A DNA stretch of 64,000 nucleotides from an uncultured Actinomycetota bacterium (GTDB lineage: Bacteria > Actinomycetota > Actinomycetes > JAHEKZ01): the NCBI GenBank assembly GCA_963718235.1, contig CAVQYR010000002.1, positions 1-64,000 on the forward strand. Direction: 5' to 3'. The notes beneath the pieces are model-generated. The model saw only the letters and a program-made list of their open reading frames with translations. It searched no databases and was not told the DNA's origin. Shown piece by piece: positions 34,377-44,824 of this stretch; positions within the stretch are counted from its first letter, which is position 1; each line of letters begins with the position of its first letter. Both the position numbers and the translations under genes were made by a program.

Positions 34377-34803
34377 TGACGGTGCGCGGGCCGTCGTTGA
34401 CGAGGCTCACGTGCATGTCCGCGCCGAACTCGCCGGTCTGAACCGAGGCGCCGCGTCGGCGCAGGGCTGCGCAGAACTCCTCGACGAGCGGCTGGCTGAT
34501 GTCTCGTGGTGCTGCCGCTGACCATGACGGACGCCGCCCCTTGGACAGGTCCGCGTACAGGGTGAACTGACTCACCACGAGCAGCGGGGCGCCGAGGTCG
34601 GCGGCCGAGCGCTCGTCGTCCATGATCCGCAGGTGCCAGACCTTCTCGGCGAGCCGCTCGGCGTGGTCGGTGCGGTCGTCGTGAGTGACGCCCACGAGCA
34701 CCACGAGCCCGGGTGCCTCGATCTCACCGACCCGGTCACGCACACCGTCGGGCCGTAGGACGTCGACCGCCGCGCTCGTGACCACCTGCACCACCGCTCG
34801 CAC
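34363..34803 (-). CDS. dtd: D-aminoacyl-tRNA deacylase
   Basis: [33 protein letters not shown]. Confidence 0.96.
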
Positions 34804-34817
34804 GCGAGCACGCTACC

Positions 34818-34868
34818 CATCTCGTGGTCGTCTGTCCGCGCTGGGCGCGGCTCGACGACCACGAGATG
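34818..34868. repeat. 51-bp palindromic REP-like element, copy D (best-paired)
   Basis: CATCTCGTGGTCGTC-TGT-CCGCGC-TGG-GCGCGG-CTC-GACGACCACGAGATG. Confidence 0.8.
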
Positions 34869-34921
34869 ACACCTGTGGACGACGTGCGCGGACCTGGCCC
34901 CGTACCGGGCACGCTGCGCCG

Positions 34922-35803
34922 ATGCGACTCACCTCGGTGGCCCTGCGGCAGGGCGGGGTCTTCACCCGGGCTCAGGCCCGGGAATGCGGTTGGTCCGACG
35001 ACGCGATCGACCGCCGTCTGCGGTGCGGTGAGTGGGTTCGGTCGCTGCCGTCGGGGCGGGGGGTGTTCCAGCACGCGTCGATCGGTAGGACGTACGAGTC
35101 GATCCGGTGGGCCGCCGTGCTCGGCGTCGGTCCGCCGTGCGCGCTCGGGCTCGAGTCGGCCGCTGCTGAGTGGGGCTGGTGCGGCGAACCAGGGATGGTG
35201 AGCGTGGTCGTCGGCCTGAACCGCAAGCCGAGATCGGTGGCTCCGGTGTCGGTGAAGCGGCTTGCGCTTGCTGACGGAGCCGTCGTCCGGCTTCGTGGGC
35301 TGCCAGTCACGTCGAAGGCGCGCACCGTCGCCGACTGCCTGCGGTTTCTCCCCCAGCCGATGGCGCAGCAGATCCTCGACCGCAGCCAGCAACGCGGTGG
35401 ACCGGCTCCGGCCGCGGTGCTGCTGCAGCTGCCTCGCGGTGGGTCCGGCGTGTGCCAGGCGAGGCGGTTGCTTCGGGCGGCCGACGGTTCGGTGTTCGCC
35501 GCCGAGCGACTGTGTGTGGCGTTGCTCCGCCAAGGTGGGGTCGAGGGCTGGCGGGCCAACCTGGCCGTGGACATTCGTGGGCGACGGATCGTGATCGACG
35601 TCGCCTTCGTGGCGGCTCGACTGGCGTTGGAGATCGACGGGTGGGCGCATCACCAGGACGTCGAGCGGTTCCAGTCCGACCGGCGGCGCCAGAACCTGCT
35701 CATCAGCGACGGCTGGCGGGTGCTGCGGTTCACCTACGCCGACCTGACCACGCGACCCGACGACGTGCTGCGGCAGGTGCGCGAGGCGCTGGCCGCCACC
35801 TGA
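34922..35803 (+). CDS. AbiEi-like wHTH plus DUF559 (Vsr-like) nuclease-domain protein
   Basis: RQGGVFTRAQARECG, VTSKARTVADC, IDVAF...LALEIDGWAHH...DRRRQNLLISDGWRVLRFT. Confidence 0.88.
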   Translation: MRLTSVALRQGGVFTRAQARECGWSDDAIDRRLRCGEWVRSLPSGRGVFQHASIGRTYESIRWAAVLGVGPPCALGLESAAAEWGWCGEPGMVSVVVGLNRKPRSVAPVSVKRLALADGAVVRLRGLPVTSKARTVADCLRFLPQPMAQQILDRSQQRGGPAPAAVLLQLPRGGSGVCQARRLLRAADGSVFAAERLCVALLRQGGVEGWRANLAVDIRGRRIVIDVAFVAARLALEIDGWAHHQDVERFQSDRRRQNLLISDGWRVLRFTYADLTTRPDDVLRQVREALAAT

Positions 35804-35850: not shown

Positions 35851-38800
35851 TCAGCGGCCGAAGAGGCCCTTCTTCTTCTTCTCCGGCTTGCCCGACCCCT
35901 TGCTCGACGGCTTGGCCGGTCGCGGGCTGGCGGGGGCTGGCGTGGCAGGGGTCGTGGTGTCGTCGTTGAAGCCGCCAAGGCTGGACAGCTCGCGGAGCAG
36001 GGCCGCGGTGTCGACACCACCGGCCTCGCGCCAGGGTGCGTCGGCGGTCGGGCCGTCATCCTCCTCGGCCTGACGAGCGGCTTCCTCGGCGGCGAGCTGC
36101 TCGGCGGCGACCCGGGCGGCCTCCTCCTCGGCAGCCACTCGCTGGGCCTCCTCGACCGCAAGTCGGGCGGCCTCCTCCTCAGCCGCGACCCGCGAGGCCT
36201 CCTGCTCGACCGCCAGCATCGCGGCCGCTTCGCGGGCGGCGTCGTCGGCCGCCTGACGCTCGGCCGTCAGTCGGTCGGCCTCGCGTTCGGCGTCGAGCCG
36301 GGCCGCCCGTTCGGCGGCGGCCCGCTTGGTCTCGGCCTTGGCCGCGTCGGCTGCGGCGCGCTTGTCCGCGGCCAGACGCTCGGCCTCGGCCTCGGCGGCA
36401 GCAGCGGCCCGCTCGGCCTCCTGCTCGGCAGCAAGCCGGGCGGCCTCCTCGGCGGCAAGGCGTTCGGCTTCGAGCCGGGCGGCTTCCTCGGCTGCTGCCT
36501 GCTCGGCGGCGATCCGGGCTTCCTCGGCCAGGCGCTCGGCCTCCAGGCGGGCAGCCTCCTCAGCGGCGAGGCGTTCGGTTTCGAGCCGGGCGGCTTCCTC
36601 GGCCGAGGCGTGCGGCTCTGCTCGGCGGCGATCCGGGCTTCCTCGGCCAGGCGTGCGGCCTCTGCCTCGGCGGCGATCCGGGCTTCCTCGGCCAGGCGCT
36701 CGGCCTCCAGGCGGGCAGCCTCCTCAGCGGCGAGGCGTTCGGCTTCGAGCCGGGCAGCCTCCTCGGCGGCGAGGCGTTCGGCTTCGAGCCGGGCAGCTTC
36801 CTCGGCGGCGAGGCGTTCGGCTTCGAGCCGGGCGGCTTCCTCAGCGGCGAGGCGTTCGGCTTCGAGCCGGGCAGCTTCCTCGGCGGCGAGGCGTTCGGCT
36901 TCGGCCGGGCAGCTTCCTCGCGGCCAGGCGGGCAGCTTCCTCGGCGGCGAGGCGTTCGGCTTCGAGTCGGGCGGCTTCCTCGGCGGCGAGGCGTTCGGCT
37001 TCGAGTCGGGCGGCTTCCTCGGTGGCGAGGCGCTCCGCCTCGAGCCGGGCCTCCTCGACCAGTCGGGCGGCCTCGGCCTCGGCGGCGAGCCGAGCCTCCT
37101 CGGCCTGACGCTTGGCGGCCTGGATCTCGGCGTCTGCCTGCTTCTGACGCCGACGGCGGCGCTCCTCCTCGACCTTGGCCAGGCGCTCGAGCTCGAGCCG
37201 CTCCTCCTCGAGCTTGCGCAGGCGCTCCTCCTCGGCGCGACGCTTCTTGGCCAACGCCTCAGCGGTGCGCTTGGCCTCGGCCTCCGCCTCGGCCGCCTTG
37301 CGTGCGGCCTCGGCGGCCTCGCGCTTGGCCTCCTCCTCCAGGGCCAGCCGCTGCGCCTCGAGCTCGGCCAACCGGGCTTCCTCGGCGCGTCGTTGCTCCT
37401 GCAGCTCCTCAGCAGCTCGTTGGGCCTTGGCCGCGGCCTCCGCGGCCTTGCGTGCGGCCTCGGCCTCGAGCTCGGCGGCCCGGCGAGCGGCAGCCTCCTC
37501 GCGCGCCCGTGCCTCGGCCTCCATCTCCTCGGCCCGGCGGGCGGCAGCCTCCTCGAGCGCGCGGGCCTCGGCCTCCATCTCGGCGGCCCGGCGCGCGGCA
37601 GTCTCCTCCAGCGCACGGGTCCGGGCCTCGGCCAGGAACACCGAGTGGGCGGCCCACGCCTCACGCTCGACCCGACGTCGTTCGGTGGCCAGCCACGTCG
37701 TGTGGTCGGCCCACGCCTCCGCCTCCATGGCGCCGCGCTGCCAGACCAGGAAGGCCTCGTGGTCGGCCCAGGCCGCACCTTCGGCGGCGATCCGCTCGGC
37801 CTCCAGCACCTCGCGGTGAACCGTCCACGCCTCGGCCTCGACGGCCAGGCGTTCGGCCTCCAGGACGGCGGTATGCGCTGTCCAGGCCTCGCTCTCGACC
37901 CGAGCGCGTTCGAGACCGAGCCACGCGAAGTGGTCGGCCCACGCGTCGAACTCAGCAGCGCAGCGCTGACCGGCCAGCCACGCCTCGTGCTCGGCCCAGG
38001 CCTCGTGCTCGGCCCCGGTCCGCTCGGCCTCCAGACGCTCGCGCTCAGCGCGCACGCTGCTGTCGAGCCAGGCGCGGTGGTCGGTCCAGGCGGCACCTTC
38101 GGCGGCGACCCGCTCGGCCTCCAGCCAGGTGACATGGGCGACCCACGCCTCGATCTCCTGGCGCCGTCGCTCCCCCTCCAGCCACGCCGCATGGTCGGCC
38201 CACGCGGCCGGTTCGTCGGCCACCCGCTTGGCCGCCAGACGCTCGCGCTCGGCCCGGATCGTGGTGTCGCACCAGGCTTCGTGGTCGGCCCAGGCCAGAG
38301 GCTCGCACCGACGTCGCTCGTTCTCCAGCCACTGGTAGTGCACCAACCAGGCCTCGGCCTCGGCCTGTCCTCGCTGCTCGGCGAGCCACGCGTCGTGCGC
38401 GGCCCAGGCCTGCGACTCGACACCCTCGCGCTGCTCGGCCAGCCAGGTCTCGTGGGACAGCCACGCCTCGGCCTCGGCGGAAACCCGCTCCTCGGCCTCG
38501 CGCAGCACGGCTTCCGCCGCGGCCCGCTCGGCCTGGGCTGCAGCCGCCTCTTGCGCCTCTTGCCGCTCGGCCTCGGCTGCCCAGTCGTCGTCCTCGTTCT
38601 CGACGACGTTGGGTGCGTTGACCGGTGTGAACAGGTCCTTCAGCGCAGCGGTGACCTTCTTGACCGACGCTGCCAGCTCGTCGCCCGCAGGGTCCGGCGC
38701 GGCGTCGAACAGTGACTTCTTGCCACGTGCCGCCTCCAAGGAGGTGACCGATGCAACCGGCTCGTCGTCGGGCAGCTCGACGTCGACGAGCCCGGCGTCC

Positions 38801-39477
38801 ATGAGCGCCTTGATGACGTGGCCGGCCTCGAAGACGGTGAAGCCGCACTCGCCGGCGAGGTCGGCGATGTCACGCTCGCCGTCGACCTTGCACAACAGGG
38901 CCCAGTCAGCACTGGACAAGACGATGTCGGCCGCGCCCTCGGGGCGGGCGGAGAGCAGGGGCACACCGCGCTCGCCGCCGATCGACATGAGCAGCTCTTC
39001 CCAGCGGTGGCGTCGAGCCTCGACCTCGGCGAGCAGCTCACGGACGGCCATGGGCGGTGCGACGTCCTGACGGTTCTTCTTGTTCTTGCGGAACTTGTGT
39101 GCCGCGACCGGCCAGCCGAGCAAGTCGCTGAGGGAGTCCTTGAGCTGCTCGACGACGAAGGCCTCGACGACGGAGCGCTCGACGTAGCCGAGGTGGACCA
39201 GCAGCTCACCCAGCCGCCACCCCTGGAGCTCGTTGCGCTGGACGTCGAGGGCGTCGGTGAGCGCCTCGGGTGACAGCTCGCCGGAGGCGATCAGCCGCGC
39301 CCCCAGCTGGGGGCGGCGTCCCGGGACGAAGATCGAGTAGATCAGCCCGTCCTTGAGGTAGACCTCGGCCTGCTCCCCTGCCGGGTCGGTGACGGTGAGG
39401 CAGCCGGTGGCGAGGGCGTCGCCGAGCTCGGCCAGAACAGGTTCGACGGCGGAGGCGTGGACCTGCGTCTGGGTCAC
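35851..39477 (-). CDS. Giant (~1200 aa) DUF4388/MshEN-like protein with Trp-His repeats and long Ala/Glu/Arg helical rod (compensating frameshifts within repeats)
   Basis: ORFs 36841..39525, 36267..38423 (part) and 35851..36219; first and last ORF share a frame; ATGCLTV...VYLKDGLI N-terminus; GGAGGG RBS before GTG 39477. Confidence 0.82.
36430..37060 (-). repeat. 39-bp coding tandem repeat ([13 protein letters not shown])n
   Basis: TCCTC recurs at 36721, 36760, 36799, 36838, 36877; degenerate copies on both sides. Confidence 0.9.
37612..38475 (-). repeat. 14 x 19-aa ExxAWxxHxx(W)LxxER protein repeat
   Basis: 288 codons = 14x19 plus two 11-aa inserts; E, A, W and H invariant in the translation. 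Confidence 0.9.
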
Positions 39478-39543
39478 GGGCCCCTCCCTCCGCCAGCCGA
39501 CACCGTCCGGGGGCGTCGGCCGCACCCCGGTTGCCCTCTCTCC

Positions 39544-39570: not shown

Positions 39571-39638
39571 CGTGGAAGCACCGGTTCGCCACCCGGTTGG
39601 CGGTCCGGGACGGGGGGAGGCATGGCACGATGCCTCCC

Positions 39639-40526
39639 ATGTCAGGCCCGGTCAGCCCCACCACGGTTCCCACGGTCGCGCCCACGGCCGCGACGATGAT
39701 CACGGTCGCGCCCACGGGCGCGGAGAGCAGCAAGGACGACGTCCCGGCCCTGCCGGTGACCCTCGAGGAGCTCGTCGCCACGGCCAAGGAGTGCGAGGCA
39801 GCCGGCGCCGCGATGATCCACGTGCACATCCGCGACGCCAAGGCCCAGCCCACGCTCGACCTCAAGCGGCTCAAGGCCACGGTGAAGGCCCTGCGGGAGC
39901 AGACCTCCCTCGTCGTCCAGCTGTCGACCGGGGGGTCGGTCAAGGACGGCTACCAGGCGCGGCTGAAGGTCCTGGACGCCGCACCCGACTCGTGCTCGCT
40001 CACCTGCGGCACGGTGAACTTCGGCGACGACGTCTTCATGAACCCTTGGCCGTTCATGGTCGAGCTGTACGCCGAGACCCAGCGACGCGAGATCGTCCCG
40101 GAGTTCGAGCTGTTCGACCTCGGACACGTCGCGTCGTTGAACCGGCTGCTCGACACCTACGGCGCGCCGTACGGCGGCCAGGTGCACTGCGACCTCGTGA
40201 TGGGCGTGCCCGGGGGCATGCCGGGTACGACGGAGGCGCTCGTCGCGGCAGTGGCCGCGCTGCCCGAGGGGGCGTCCTGGTCGGCCACCGGGGTGGGTCG
40301 CTCGTCGCTGACGGTGATGTTCGCCGCCCTGTCGGCCGGGGGCCACCTGCGCGTGGGCATGGAGGACGTGCTCACCTACAGTCGCCGGGTGCCGGTGCGT
40401 GACAATGCTCAGCTGGTGGCGCGAGCCGCCGAGGCAGCCACGTTGTTCCAGCGGCCGCCGATGTCGCCCGATCAGGCTCGCGCCATGCTTCACGTACGTC
40501 CGCCCGCCTCAGGAGGCACCGCATGA
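39639..40526 (+). CDS. Beta-keto acid cleavage enzyme (BKACE/Kce, DUF849) family
   Basis: ITVAPTGA, GAAMIHVHIRD, QLSTGG, PEFELFDLGH, GGHLRVGMED. Confidence 0.92.
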   Translation: MSGPVSPTTVPTVAPTAATMITVAPTGAESSKDDVPALPVTLEELVATAKECEAAGAAMIHVHIRDAKAQPTLDLKRLKATVKALREQTSLVVQLSTGGSVKDGYQARLKVLDAAPDSCSLTCGTVNFGDDVFMNPWPFMVELYAETQRREIVPEFELFDLGHVASLNRLLDTYGAPYGGQVHCDLVMGVPGGMPGTTEALVAAVAALPEGASWSATGVGRSSLTVMFAALSAGGHLRVGMEDVLTYSRRVPVRDNAQLVARAAEAATLFQRPPMSPDQARAMLHVRPPASGGTA

Positions 40527-41101
40527 CCGAGTCGTCGACCGTCGATGCCAGCGTCGGCCCCAAGTCGGGCGGGCGCCGTCGGATCGACCGCGTGCTGTCC
40601 GACGACTTCCTCGACGGCCTGGTCGACCTCTCGTTGGCCGACCTGCGGGCCCGGCGGGCCGAGGCCGAGCAGGAGGAGGCCGACCTGTCCTACGTGCGGC
40701 GGCTGCTCCAGGGGCGGATGGACATCGTGCGCGCCGAGCTCGGACGTCGGTCGGGGGGCTCGACCGAGGGCTCGCTGGTCGACCAGCTGGCGGCGATCCT
40801 GTCCGACGGTCCGTCGGCGCCACCGCACGGCATGGGTCGCCACGTGACCGTGGAGCCGTCGCGGGTCGACGAGCACCGGCGCGCCGTCGAGCAGCTGATC
40901 GCCGACGTCGGGGTCAGCGACGTCGTGTCCCTCGACGAGAGCTCCTTGGCCGGGGCGCTGACCCGGCTGTCGGAGTACGAGCGTGCCGTGTCGCGCAACC
41001 GTCGGCGGGTGCAGGACGCCATGGACTCGTGCACCGCGGAGATCGCCCGGCGCTACAAGTCCGGCGAGGCCAGCGTCGACGACCTCCTCGCCGGCCGCTG
41101 A
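40523..41101 (+). CDS. rsiG: RsiG/AmfC-like c-di-GMP-binding anti-sigma factor
   Basis: Two E-X3-S-X2-R-X3-Q-X3-D motifs: EADLSYVRRLLQGRMD (40676-40723) and ERAVSRNRRRVQDAMD (40979-41026); dtd/asparaginase neighbourhood. Confidence 0.88.
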   Translation: MTESSTVDASVGPKSGGRRRIDRVLSDDFLDGLVDLSLADLRARRAEAEQEEADLSYVRRLLQGRMDIVRAELGRRSGGSTEGSLVDQLAAILSDGPSAPPHGMGRHVTVEPSRVDEHRRAVEQLIADVGVSDVVSLDESSLAGALTRLSEYERAVSRNRRRVQDAMDSCTAEIARRYKSGEASVDDLLAGR

Positions 41102-41115
41102 CGCCCCCACCCCAA

Positions 41116-41201
41116 GTTGATCTTGGACTTGATGTGACAGTTCGACCCCTCCGGCCGTCATCTTCTCCATGATCAACAGATGATCATCAGATGATCAACA
41201 G
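41116..41201. repeat. Imperfect inverted repeat followed by 3 x 11-bp tandem
   Basis: GTTGATCTTGGA...TCCATGATCAAC, then ATGATCAACAG/ATGATCATCAG/ATGATCAACAG. Confidence 0.65.
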
Positions 41202-41253
41202 GGAGAAGGACGGCGAGCGGGCAGGGGCAGCGGCGGAAGCGACGGACGCGCGG

Positions 41254-42204
41254 GTGCGGGGGTACGCCGCGCACCGGGTCGTCGCCGTCGTGGAGCGGTC
41301 CGGACTCGTCGAGGGTGTGCACTGCGGCACGGTGGTCGCCCTGGACGGCGCCGGCCGCGTGGTCCACGCCGTCGGTGACCCCGACCTGGAGGTCTACCCG
41401 CGGTCGGCCGCCAAGCCGATGCAGGCCTCGGGCATGGTGCGGCTCGGGCTCGAGCTCCCGGACGACGAGCTGGCGCTGGTCGGGGCCTCGCACAGCGGCG
41501 AGCCGATGCACGTCGACGGCGTCCGTCGGATCCTGGCCAGAGCCGGGCTCGACGAGTCGGCGCTGCAGAACACCCCGCGCCTCCCCCTGCACGAGCCCAG
41601 CCGCGACGCCGAGATCAAGGCCGGCCGCGGCGAGACTTCGGTGTGCGCCGACTGCTCGGGCAAGCACGCCGGCATGGTCGTGACGTGTGTCCTCAACGGC
41701 TGGGCCGTCGCCACGTACCTGGACGACGACCATCCGCTGCAGCGGGCCCTGCGCGCCGAGCTCGAGCTCGTTGCCGGCGAACCCGTCGTCCACAGCGGCG
41801 TCGACGGGTGCGGGGCGCCGATCTGGGCGATCACGCTGACCGGCCTGGCCCGGGCCTTCGCCGGGTGCGTGACCGCCGCCGAGGGATCGCCGCCGCGGAG
41901 GGTGGCCGACGCCATGCGCCGCCACCCGGAGATGGTGGGCGGTACCGGTCGAGACGTCACCGGGTTCATGACCGCCGTCCCCGGTCTGCTGGCCAAGGAG
42001 GGCGCCGAGGCGATCTACGCCGCCGCCCTCCCCGACGGCTCAGCAGTGGCCCTGAAGATCTCCGACGGAGCGTTCCGTGCGGCGCAGGTAGCGCTGGCCA
42101 GTGCCTTGGCAGCGGTCGGTGTCGACCCGGAGCGGCTCGCGCCCTGGGCGAGCGTTCCGGTGCTCGGGCACGGGCGGCCCGTGGGGTCGGTGCACGCGCC
42201 CTAA
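41254..42204 (+). CDS. L-asparaginase II (Rhizobium-type) family
   Basis: RSGLVEGVH, PRSAAKPMQA, SHSGE, CSGKHAGM, DGCGAP, KEGAE, KISDG; start uncertain. Confidence 0.9.
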   Translation: MRGYAAHRVVAVVERSGLVEGVHCGTVVALDGAGRVVHAVGDPDLEVYPRSAAKPMQASGMVRLGLELPDDELALVGASHSGEPMHVDGVRRILARAGLDESALQNTPRLPLHEPSRDAEIKAGRGETSVCADCSGKHAGMVVTCVLNGWAVATYLDDDHPLQRALRAELELVAGEPVVHSGVDGCGAPIWAITLTGLARAFAGCVTAAEGSPPRRVADAMRRHPEMVGGTGRDVTGFMTAVPGLLAKEGAEAIYAAALPDGSAVALKISDGAFRAAQVALASALAAVGVDPERLAPWASVPVLGHGRPVGSVHAP

Positions 42205-44296: not shown

Positions 44297-44824
44297 GTGA
44301 GTTCCTCTCCGGTCGTTCGGCTCGGCGACTACATCCGTGAACAGCGCGAAGGTGCGGCGATCTCGCTGCGCCGGTTGGCCCTGGACGCCGGCGTCTCGAA
44401 CCCCTACCTGAGCCAGATCGAGCGCGGCCTGCGCAAGCCCAGCGCGGAGGTGCTGCAGCAGATCGCCAAGGGGCTGCGGATCTCCGCCGAGCAGCTCTAC
44501 GTGCGGGCCGGCCTGCTCGAGGAGCGGGAGTCCGGGCTCGAGGTGGAGTCGGCCGTGGTCAGCGACCCGGCGATCTCCGAGCGGCAGAAGCGCGTGCTGC
44601 TCGACATCTACGCCTCGTTCCTGTCCGAGAACGCGCAAACCACGCACCAGCCCGTTGCGCCGGAGGCCGCTGACGCCAAGGCCGCCCCTGTGAAGAAGAC
44701 CACGAAGCGACCCGCAGCGAAGAAGGCCAGCGGCACCAAGAGCACGAGCAAGCGGCCGGCGAAGAAGTCCACCACTCCCTCCACCTCACGATCCACGACC
44801 GCCCGTAAGGCCAAGAAAGGCTGA
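44297..44824 (+). CDS. XRE-family HTH regulator with Lys-rich tail (Rv0474-like)
   Basis: GVSNPYLSQIERGLRKPSAEVLQQIAKGLRISAE; TAGCCT -10 element just upstream (leaderless). Confidence 0.92.
   Translation: MSSSPVVRLGDYIREQREGAAISLRRLALDAGVSNPYLSQIERGLRKPSAEVLQQIAKGLRISAEQLYVRAGLLEERESGLEVESAVVSDPAISERQKRVLLDIYASFLSENAQTTHQPVAPEAADAKAAPVKKTTKRPAAKKASGTKSTSKRPAKKSTTPSTSRSTTARKAKKG

What the first reader, a model, noticed from the sequence alone, without database searches (positions are those of the whole stretch)
37612..38475. Unrecognised 19-residue W-xx-H-xx-W repeat (14 copies), possible metal/heme or aromatic array on a helical rod
Seen: 14 units such as [60 protein letters not shown] and H are invariant while other positions and the DNA are well diverged, which suggests selection rather than recent slippage. 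The only two insertions are both 11 aa, about 3 helical turns, so phase is kept. Known: 19/5 and 11/3 are non-heptad coiled-coil periodicities. Inference: His flanked by Trp at i-3 and i+3 lies on one helix face, so an oligomer could present regularly spaced His ligands or stacked aromatics. I do not recognise the repeat family.
Basis: partly seen in the sequence, partly recalled or inferred. Interest (0 to 1): 0.85.

Follow-up and report, generated by a model that had tools for sequence, protein, structure and literature searches.

The report
Trp-His helical repeat in actinobacterial stalk protein
A real and conserved but undescribed 19-residue tryptophan-histidine helical repeat forms part of the long stalk of an actinobacterial protein whose head resembles a c-di-GMP sensor; what the repeat does is still unknown.

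Summary
Minus-strand bases 37612-38475 encode 14 units of E-x-x-A-W-x-x-H-x-x-[W/V/F]-L-x-x-x-R-x-x-x. E1, A4, W5 and H8 are present in 14 of 14 units, and there are two 11-residue insertions.

The repeat lies in a gene of about 1208 codons (35851-39477, minus strand). The gene has an N-terminal PATAN/DUF4388 domain, an MshEN-like motif and a winged helix. A helical stalk of roughly 800 residues follows (AF2 modelled only to residue 660), then a C-terminal LLRELSSL...KKKKGLFGR tail.

AlphaFold2 models the array as near-continuous helix, pLDDT 72-85.

No Pfam, NCBIfam, PDB-sequence or Atlas match covers the array. A unit profile hit 22 of 1.84 billion representatives. Apart from one spurious low-complexity hit these are this family or short or frameshifted fragments.

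The 19-residue spacing, W and H hold across homologues in a few Actinomycetes families: 54 of 401 genomes.

The gene sits divergently beside a BKACE-rsiG operon; rsiG is nearby in 66 of 70 loci.

There is no continuous 19/5 hydrophobic seam, and nothing bears on haem or metal binding.

Best guess, at low to moderate confidence: buried aromatic/His patches that zip stalks or dock a partner.

The parts
35851..39477 (-). Whole gene, about 1208 codons. The likely start is the GTG at 39477, preceded by GGAGGGAGGGG; the ORF as listed starts at the GTG at 39525. As assembled, the frame is broken twice inside a tandem repeat.
   Evidence: homologues start at the equivalent of residue 17
38746..39477 (-). 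Folded N-terminal head: PATAN/DUF4388 beta-sheet part, an MshEN-like four-helix part, and a winged helix.
   Evidence: Pfam PF14332, E 9.2e-9, 35.8 bits against a cut-off of 25. AF2 model of the head alone: pLDDT 84.6, pTM 0.75.
39136..39315 (-). MshEN-like tandem 24-residue motifs: [24 protein letters not shown], a 7-residue spacer, then [24 protein letters not shown].
   Evidence: NCBIfam NF053729, 34 bits (cut-off 38). PDB sequence matches: PilF 6f8l 5.3e-7 and MshE 5htl 0.0029. Fold matches: 5htl Z 6.2, rmsd 1.6 A, 58 residues, 36% identity; 8pdk Z 5.8. Foldseek probability 0.98-1.00. Motif regex.
38758..39000 (-). Winged-helix subdomain of the head.
   Evidence: VIA-align: GATOR1 Nprl chain 8fw5_B Z 8.7; Rv2067c 8hkr Z 8.0; MarR-type chains Z 6-7
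37612..38475 (-). The 14-unit Trp-His repeat (residues 351-642 of P0001): E-x-x-A-W-x-[D/A/E]-H-x-x-W-L-x-x-[E/Q]-R-x-x-[A/V].
   Evidence: modelled as helix
38215..38304 (-). Unit 4, a 30-residue variant (19 + 11 inserted residues).
   Evidence: the same 19,19,19,30,19,19,30 spacing is seen in 8 of the 9 relatives' loci L007-L015, counting units that have lost WxxH as double spacings; L011's ORF starts one unit later
38011..38100 (-). Unit 7, a 30-residue variant (19 + 11 inserted residues).
36220..37611 (-). E/A/R/L-rich stalk downstream of the array, including near-identical 39-nt (13-residue [13 protein letters not shown]) tandem repeats at about 36525-37089. Helix is inferred from composition; it was not modelled.
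   Evidence: TRF: 79-93% matches; translations
36615..36912 (-). Segment that reads sensibly only in another minus-strand frame. Two compensating frame breaks lie at about 36905-36920 and 36609-36620.
   Evidence: no contig bridges either break
35968..36012 (-). Conserved C-terminal motif [15 protein letters not shown].
   Evidence: kept also in family members that lack the Trp-His module
35854..35880 (-). C-terminal basic/hydrophobic tail KKKKGLFGR.
39597..41101 (+). Divergent neighbouring operon: BKACE (39597-40526) and RsiG-like anti-sigma (40523-41101, 4-nt overlap). The RsiG-like protein has both E(X)3S(X)2R(X)3Q(X)3D motifs.
   Evidence: synteny: RsiG in 66 of 70 loci, BKACE in 56 of 70

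Best explanation
The 14 units are a lineage-specific alpha-helical tandem repeat. On a straight helix at 0.15 nm per residue, their 292 residues would span about 44 nm at the start of a long stalk in a cytoplasmic three-part protein. The three parts are:
1. a head made of PATAN/DUF4388, a non-canonical MshEN-like motif pair (a putative c-di-GMP sensor) and a winged helix;
2. a helical stalk of variable length;
3. a conserved C-terminal LLRELSSL motif with a KKKKGLFGR tail, a possible membrane or partner anchor.

Each unit places E1, A4, W5, H8, W11, L12 and R16 within an arc of about 140 degrees on the helix. The His sits in a cage of two Trp, a Leu and an invariant Ala. Successive patches are offset by about 100 degrees.

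I think these patches are most likely buried helix-helix contacts that hold two or more stalks, or the stalk and a partner helix, in a fixed register. That would turn a floppy spacer into a defined rod. The His layers could make the contact sensitive to pH or metal.

Shown: the repeat, its conservation, the predicted helix, the similarities of the head, and the synteny.
Inferred: self-association, c-di-GMP binding, anchoring by the tail, and any link to RsiG/WhiG.
For: - The repeat and its register are conserved. In 37 distinct ORFs and 266 distinct units, E1 is 97%, A4 100%, W11 80%, L12 84% and R16 79% (W5 and H8 were used to select the units). Only 10 of 305 in-register units have lost W or H.
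- An invariant small residue (Ala) beside Trp, together with 8.6% Trp, is hard to explain unless the patch is buried (inference).
- Units keep individual identity across species: orthologous units are 62% identical against 43% for paralogous units. This is an old, constrained array rather than recent slippage. The downstream 13-residue repeats, in contrast, are 79-93% identical at the DNA level.
- AF2 gives near-continuous helix with one single-residue break and no turns, so a solenoid is unlikely.
- The head matches MshE/PilF c-di-GMP domains locally. The genome has 15 GGDEF matches.
- The gene is divergent from BKACE-rsiG, with rsiG nearby in 66 of 70 loci.
Against: - There is no continuous hydrophobic seam. 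The Fourier amplitude at 19/5 is weak. Positions 15/16 and 1 of the would-be core are charged.
- The array carries a net charge of -31, which would oppose close packing of like helices.
- Family members without the module (L038, L078, L072 have only EAERL repeats; L047 is P/A-rich) keep the head and the tail. The module is therefore accessory.
- MshEN motif I lacks the first Arg (it is Q, L or M in 26 of 26 sequences), the spacer is 7 residues rather than 5, and the NCBIfam score is below its cut-off. c-di-GMP binding is therefore unproven.
- No experimental data exist for any member.
Confidence: 0.38

Rival explanations
1. Multivalent docking array. Each 19-residue patch is an independent binding site for a partner protein, peptide or small ligand, so the stalk concentrates many copies of the partner. 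The partner could, speculatively, be a nucleotide such as c-di-GMP stacked on Trp with contacts from E1, D7 and R16.
For: - The patches spiral about 100 degrees per unit and do not form one seam, which suits separate sites.
- Copy number ranges from 3 to 17 among homologues, as expected for a valency module.
- Units keep individual sequence features across species.
- The neighbouring RsiG binds c-di-GMP through a 16-residue helical motif (passages of bioRxiv 10.64898/2026.01.14.699351), so there is a precedent for ligand binding on helices.
Against: - No partner has been identified.
- The RsiG motif itself is absent from the protein.
- The strongly acidic net charge (-31) argues against binding of anionic nucleotides.
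- The conserved neighbours (BKACE, asparaginase II) suggest no obvious partner.
Confidence: 0.25
2. One reading: an oligomer presents regularly spaced His ligands, so the rod binds haem (bis-His between two helices) or metal ions at 14 sites.
For: - The His is near-invariant. It has hydrophobic residues at i-4, i-3, i+3 and i+4 (A, W, W, L) and an Arg at i+8.
- From recalled knowledge of cytochrome b and designed haem maquettes, a small residue at i-4, apolar flanks and an Arg for the propionates fit a haem-ligating helix.
Against: - There is no direct evidence.
- No conserved second ligand exists on the same helix.
- The protein is cytoplasmic and acidic.
- The conserved neighbours are unrelated to haem or metals.
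- No match to any haem or metal family in Pfam, NCBIfam or PDB sequences.
- Sites about 28 A apart (19 x 1.5 A) would be too far for electron hopping (inference).
- Family members without the module exist.
Confidence: 0.09
3. Membrane-surface amphipathic helix. The Trp/His/Leu patches lie in the lipid interface, and together with the C-terminal KKKKGLFGR tail they lay the stalk along the membrane.
For: - Trp prefers membrane interfaces (established knowledge).
- Conserved apolar residues cluster on one face within each unit.
- The basic/hydrophobic C-terminal tail recalls MinD-type membrane-targeting sequences (recalled, not tested).
Against: - A net charge of -31 over 292 residues is unfavourable on anionic bacterial membranes.
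- The per-unit Wimley-White moments are small, 0.05-0.24.
- The patches rotate around the helix rather than facing one side.
- The invariant Ala is not explained.
Confidence: 0.08
4. Passive spacer. The array is simply a stiff single alpha-helix (ER/K-like) that sets distance, and the W/H pattern has no specific contact role.
For: - The rest of the stalk is a variable, rapidly changing E/A/R/L repeat.
- The module is dispensable in some lineages.
- R16 to E1' i+4 pairs could stabilise a lone helix.
Against: - Near-invariance of A4, W5 and H8 across 305 units, and unit-specific conservation, are not expected for a spacer.
- Exposed Trp at 8.6% would be costly.
Confidence: 0.1

Closest known systems
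MshEN c-di-GMP-binding domain (V. cholerae MshE, T. thermophilus PilF GSPII domains)
   Same: The head carries two tandem 24-residue motifs of the RLGxxLLxxGhhxxxxLxxxLxxQ type. They superpose on 5htl at 1.6 A over 58 residues with 36% identity.
   Different: Motif I lacks the first Arg, the spacer is 7 residues rather than 5, and the NCBIfam score is below its cut-off. The motifs are embedded in a PATAN/winged-helix head rather than at the N terminus of a secretion ATPase. Binding is untested. The similarity concerns the head, not the Trp-His repeat.
PATAN/DUF4388 (PF14332) proteins such as cyanobacterial PatA-type regulators
   Same: The Pfam match is above the gathering score.
   Different: PatA-type proteins carry a receiver domain (passages of PMC12448109). 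This protein instead has a helical stalk of roughly 800 residues and a C-terminal tail.
Sensor-head plus long coiled-coil scaffolds (Myxococcus FrzS/AglZ; Streptomyces Scy/FilP) - recalled, not tested
   Same: The general architecture is the same: a small regulatory head followed by a very long helical region with variable tandem repeats.
   Different: No sequence relation was found. Those proteins have heptad- or hendecad-based hydrophobic seams, whereas this array shows none at 3.5-3.8 residues per turn. None is known to me to have a Trp-His repeat.
Non-heptad coiled coils (11/3, 15/4, 19/5; e.g. tetrabrachion, YadA stalk) - recalled
   Same: The repeat length of 19 and the inserts of 11 equal known non-heptad periodicities.
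   Different: The hydrophobic amplitude at 19/5 is weak, and the would-be core positions 15/16 and 1 are charged.
RsiG E(X)3S(X)2R(X)3Q(X)3D helical c-di-GMP motif (the neighbouring gene)
   Same: Both are 16-residue conserved motifs displayed on a long helix, and the two genes are encoded next to each other.
   Different: The residues differ, and the RsiG motif is absent from this protein.

Membership tests
PATAN / DUF4388 (PF14332) | Match to the Pfam model above its gathering score | tested here: met
   35.8 bits against a cut-off of 25, residues 39-175
MshEN c-di-GMP receptor domain | Two tandem 24-residue motifs RLGxx(L/V/I)(L/V/I)xxG(L/V/I)(L/V/I)xxxxLxxxLxxQ (PMC5013675, passages) | tested here: inconclusive
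   Motif II fits the paper's relaxed pattern in 13 of 26 family sequences, including the window. Motif I fits except at its first residue (Q, L or M in 26 of 26) and its 11th residue.
MshEN c-di-GMP receptor domain | 5-residue spacer between the two motifs | tested here: not met
   The spacer is 7 residues, RNELQGW
MshEN c-di-GMP receptor domain | Curated NCBIfam model NF053729 above its cut-off | tested here: not met
   34 bits against a cut-off of 38
MshEN c-di-GMP receptor domain | Four-helix fold superposable on MshE/PilF | tested here: met
   5htl_B Z 6.2, rmsd 1.6 A, 58 residues, 36% identity; 8pdk_A Z 5.8, 1.8 A; Foldseek probability 0.98-1.00
MshEN c-di-GMP receptor domain | Binds c-di-GMP | not testable with these tools
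   Needs DRaCALA, ITC or a co-crystal structure
Any described repeat or domain family covering the Trp-His array | Profile match over residues 351-642 | tested here: not met
   Nothing over the array in Pfam or NCBIfam at E <= 1. PDB sequence profile: no hit centred on the array; one composition-type match (IF-2, profile positions 624-791) may touch its last units. Atlas: no usable hit.
Coiled coil with 19/5 periodicity | Continuous hydrophobic seam at 3.8 residues per turn | tested here: not met
   Amplitude at k=5 is 0.08 (Wimley-White) and 0.26 (Kyte-Doolittle), against 0.37 and 0.99 at k=3, over units 8-14
Coiled coil with 19/5 periodicity | Forms a homo-oligomer | not testable with these tools
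   Needs SEC-MALS, AUC or a structure
RsiG-type c-di-GMP helical motif | E(X)3S(X)2R(X)3Q(X)3D present | tested here: not met
   The regex finds none in the 1209-codon reading of the gene but two in the neighbouring RsiG-like protein
Haem or metal-binding helical proteins | Known signature or family match (e.g. CXXCH, ExxH pairs), or ligand binding | tested here: inconclusive
   No family match. The residues at i+/-4 of the His are Ala and Leu, not ligands. Binding itself cannot be tested here.

The most novel reading that the evidence does not exclude
The array is a natural maquette-like rod. Paired stalks would sandwich a planar cofactor or metal at each His-in-aromatic-cage site (A at i-4, W at i+/-3, L at i+4, R at i+8), giving up to 14 ligand sites per pair of helices. 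The rod carries a c-di-GMP-sensing head and is genetically tied to the RsiG/WhiG switch, so it could act as a second-messenger-controlled cofactor store or sensor. No such system is known.
Probability: 0.07. Interest if true: 0.9.

Novelty: new variant of a known kind. Interest (0 to 1): 0.52.

Why it matters
If the head binds c-di-GMP, this would be an uncharacterised and fairly widespread actinobacterial c-di-GMP effector. The repeat occurs in 54 of 401 sampled genomes of the class, concentrated in about six families, and the gene sits beside the c-di-GMP-armed anti-sigma gene rsiG.

The Trp-His repeat itself has no described relative. With 8.6% Trp, a caged invariant His and an invariant Ala, it is an unusual test case for how non-heptad aromatic patches organise long helices. 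It would also be a compact module for protein design if it proves to be a registry, docking or ligand-binding element.

All carriers seen here are metagenome-assembled genomes, so experimental access is currently limited.

Tried and rejected
- **Co-folding.** Two copies of units 8-14 with a 23-row alignment gave ipSAE 0.00 in both runs, so the tool returned no verdict. This counts neither for nor against self-association.
- **ESM Atlas.** A search with the array gave no usable hit.
- **Foldseek on the 644-residue model.** The long helix drew only meaningless rows. The one clear local match was MshE.
- **Reads and contigs of four runs (X1, X2, X3, X19).** No contig bridges either frame break, so the breaks remain unresolved. 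The RNA run gave only short, partly fitting pieces, so expression is not shown.
- **WhiG-type -10 box GCCGATAA.** There were 21 matches at up to 1 mismatch in the window against 20.7 expected, and none lies upstream of the gene.
- **C-terminal 69 residues searched against longer proteins.** Only this family and its fragments were found, so the tail was not seen on other architectures with this query.
- **Solenoid or hairpin reading of the 19-mers.** Rejected, because AF2 shows no turns between units.
- **Recent slippage.** Rejected for this array (58% nucleotide identity between units), although it applies to the downstream 39-nt repeats.
- **Literature.** Searches for DUF4388, MshEN + Streptomyces + coiled-coil, RsiG/WhiG and '19-residue repeat' found no paper on this family. 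Subscription journals and supplements were not seen.
Full report
**Observation**

The finding lies on the minus strand, inside ORF 36841..39525 (P0001, 894 aa as assembled). A scan for W-x-x-H finds 14 sites at residues 355-624. The 19-residue units that hold them span exactly window 37612-38475.
- E1, A4, W5 and H8 are present in 14 of 14 units.
- L12 is present in 13 of 14, R16 in 12 of 14 and W11 in 10 of 14.
- Spacing is 19 residues except after units 4 and 7, where it is 30. These two 30-residue units resemble each other.
- Units share on average 58% nucleotide and 46% amino-acid identity. TRF sees only a weak 57-nt period here. In contrast it finds 79-93% matches in the 39-nt repeats further downstream.
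- Shuffling the 292 residues 20000 times gave a mean of 1.3 and a maximum of 7 WxxH sites, against 14 observed.
- The region holds 25 Trp and 15 His and has a net charge of -31.

**The gene**

A GGAGGGAGGGG box precedes the GTG at 39477, and homologues start at the equivalent position. I therefore take 39477 as the start.

Frame-wise translation shows the following:
- The reading frame is sensible to about 36920.
- It then continues in another minus-strand frame for about 300 nt, within near-identical [13 protein letters not shown] repeats.
- It returns to the first frame at about 36615 and runs to the stop at 35851.
- That last stretch ends in ...[15 protein letters not shown]...KKKKGLFGR.

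Read in one frame, the 1209 codons contain two internal stops. Full-length homologues have exactly this C terminus (P0003, P0004, P0009-P0011, P0014), so the intact protein would be about 1208 aa. Several other long-contig assemblies show similar frame slips in this repeat (P0008, P0012, L049, L064). Assembly error is therefore plausible, but the public contigs I laid do not bridge the breaks.

**The head**

Sequence evidence:
- Pfam gives DUF4388/PATAN, 35.8 bits against a cut-off of 25.
- NCBIfam gives the MshE-related c-di-GMP motif at 34 bits, below its cut-off of 38.
- PDB sequence searches hit PilF (5.3e-7) and MshE (0.0029) across both 24-residue motifs.

Structural evidence, from an AF2 model of residues 17-260 (pLDDT 84.6, pTM 0.75):
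- Residues 55-114 superpose on MshE with c-di-GMP (5htl: Z 6.2, 1.6 A, 58 residues, 36% identity) and on PilF GSPIIB (8pdk: Z 5.8).
- Residues 160-240 form a winged helix (Z 8.7 to a GATOR1 Nprl chain, 6-7 to MarR-type chains).

Against the published motif (passages of PMC5013675):
- Motif II ([24 protein letters not shown]) fits the relaxed pattern.
- Motif I begins with Q, L or M instead of Arg in 26 of 26 family sequences.
- The spacer is 7 residues rather than 5.

The head is therefore MshEN-like, and c-di-GMP binding is plausible but unproven. The genome has 15 GGDEF matches.

**The array in relatives**

The search for homologous proteins on the array region returned 11 proteins, all with DUF4388. 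I then built a 38-position profile from 111 double units, taken from the window and from loci selected by WxxH at 19-residue spacing. Searched against 1.84 billion representatives, it hit only 22 proteins at E <= 0.001. On reading them, these are members of this family, short or frameshifted high-GC fragments, and one unrelated low-complexity protein (P0028). No other architecture carries the repeat.

Distribution:
- In genome contigs, 236 stretches encode relatives of the head. Of the 70 loci kept, 35 have an ORF with 3 or more WxxH sites and 35 do not. Some of the latter are truncated contigs, and L053 is a composition hit.
- Where named, the records are MAGs labelled Actinomycetes, Nanopelagicales, Sporichthyaceae, Acidothermaceae, Frankiales or Micrococcales.
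- In 401 genomes of the class, the profile matched 54. They are concentrated in a few families: f1 13/19, f6 6/6, f17 17/22, f25 9/12, f26 1/2 and 7/211 in the rest. It was not found in several well-sampled families (0/22, 0/22, 0/22, 0/17).
- Copy number ranges from 3 to 17, almost always at 19-residue spacing. The window's closest clade keeps the 19,19,19,30,19,19,30,19x6 pattern.

Conservation:
- Over 266 distinct units from 37 ORFs, E1 is 97%, A4 100%, W11 80%, L12 84% and R16 79%. Position 7 is D/A/E and position 19 is A/V. W5 and H8 are 100% by construction.
- Taking units by register instead, 10 of 305 have lost W (to R, Y or Q) or H (to E, Q or Y).
- In the close clade, same-index units of different genomes are 62% identical against 43% for different-index units. 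The array is therefore old, and the units are individually constrained.
- In some distant lineages (e.g. L055) the units are nearly identical to one another.

Family members without the module exist. L038, L078 and L072 have only EAERL-type repeats, and L047 has a P/A-rich linker. All keep the head and the C-terminal motif and tail. The array is thus an accessory, lineage-specific part of a variable stalk.

**Structure**

AF2 on residues 17-660 with 26 sequences gives helices 300-420 and 422-643 (model numbering is P0001 minus 16) at pLDDT 72-85. The only break follows the first 30-residue unit. pTM is 0.38. There are no turns between units, which rules out a hairpin solenoid.

At 100 degrees per residue, the conserved residues of one unit fall within an arc of about 140 degrees: E1 at 0, A4 at 300, W5 at 40, H8 at 340, W11 at 280, L12 at 20 and R16 at 60. 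The next unit is offset by 100 degrees.

Fourier analysis of hydrophobicity over units 8-14 shows little power at 19/5 (Wimley-White 0.08, Kyte-Doolittle 0.26) and more at 19/3 and 19/6. There is therefore no continuous seam of the kind that defines a 19/5 coiled coil. Instead there are 14 discrete aromatic/His patches spiralling round a long acidic helix.

The residues at i+/-4 of the His are Ala and Leu, and those at i+/-3 are Trp. The His is caged by apolar groups and has no conserved co-ligand on its own helix.

**Context**

The gene is divergent from BKACE (39597-40526). BKACE overlaps by 4 nt an RsiG-like gene (40523-41101) that has both E(X)3S(X)2R(X)3Q(X)3D motifs. Asparaginase II follows.

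tblastn of the window's neighbours against the 70 loci finds:
- RsiG in 66;
- BKACE in 56;
- asparaginase II in 55;
- an HTH_3 gene in 41.

Misses include truncated contigs. RsiG is the c-di-GMP-armed anti-sigma factor of WhiG (passages of PMC8325347 and of bioRxiv 10.64898/2026.01.14.699351). Those passages do not mention this neighbour, and I found no paper on the family. Supplements and subscription journals were not seen.

**Interpretation**

I commit, at about 0.38, to the view that the patches are buried helix-helix contacts. They would hold stalks, or the stalk and a partner helix, in register. This would happen within a putatively c-di-GMP-responsive scaffold that may be anchored through its tail. 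The invariant Ala beside Trp and the cost of exposing 25 Trp are the main arguments.

The arguments against are the lack of a seam, the charge of -31, and the fact that the module is dispensable in some lineages.

Rivals:
- a multivalent docking array (0.25);
- a passive stiff spacer (0.10);
- a membrane-surface helix (0.08).

None can be settled by computation here.

**Comparison and novelty**

The head is a member of PF14332 and is MshEN-like without meeting all MshEN criteria. The array belongs to no described family. It resembles non-heptad coiled coils only in its repeat length.

I rate it a new variant of a known kind: a novel helical tandem repeat in a sensor-head plus stalk scaffold. 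It is of moderate interest. It is real, conserved, compositionally odd and genetically tied to c-di-GMP signalling, but it has no functional handle and is so far seen only in uncultured genomes.

Noticed in passing
window 36609-36920 (minus strand): Two compensating frame breaks about 300 nt apart lie inside near-identical 39-nt repeats. Similar slips appear in other long-contig assemblies of the family (P0008, P0012, L049, L064). They could be assembly error or real.
   Followed up: partly
window 40523-41101 (+): An RsiG-like anti-sigma gene has both intact c-di-GMP motifs (residues 52 and 153). It overlaps the stop of the BKACE gene by 4 nt. It is found near the stalk gene in 66 of 70 related loci.
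   Followed up: partly
window 41191-42204 (+) and 44297-44824 (+): Asparaginase II (55 of 70 loci) and an HTH_3 regulator (41 of 70 loci) also belong to the conserved neighbourhood.
   Followed up: no
G000:C1:1949031-1949762 (L002 955..2340, minus strand): This is a second DUF4388-like gene (461 aa, P/Q-rich tail, no Trp-His repeat). The ORF upstream of it looks like a Roadblock/LC7-type protein by eye, but I did not scan it.
   Followed up: no
window 34685-35803 (+): This gene has AbiEi_4 plus DUF559/MTES_1575 endonuclease-like domains and converges on the 3' end of the stalk gene.
   Followed up: no
window 36085: One public contig (run X1) lacks 15 nt here. This is an in-frame length variant in the C-terminal E/A-rich part.
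   Followed up: no
L055:9356-9790: In this distant homologue, five of the seven Trp-His units are identical (EEAAWADHATWLAAARAAA). That indicates recent homogenisation, unlike the diverged units of the window.
   Followed up: no
window 37456-37619 (minus strand): A 54-nt (18-residue) repeat, 3 copies at 86% matches, encodes [22 protein letters not shown] units immediately after the Trp-His array.
   Followed up: no
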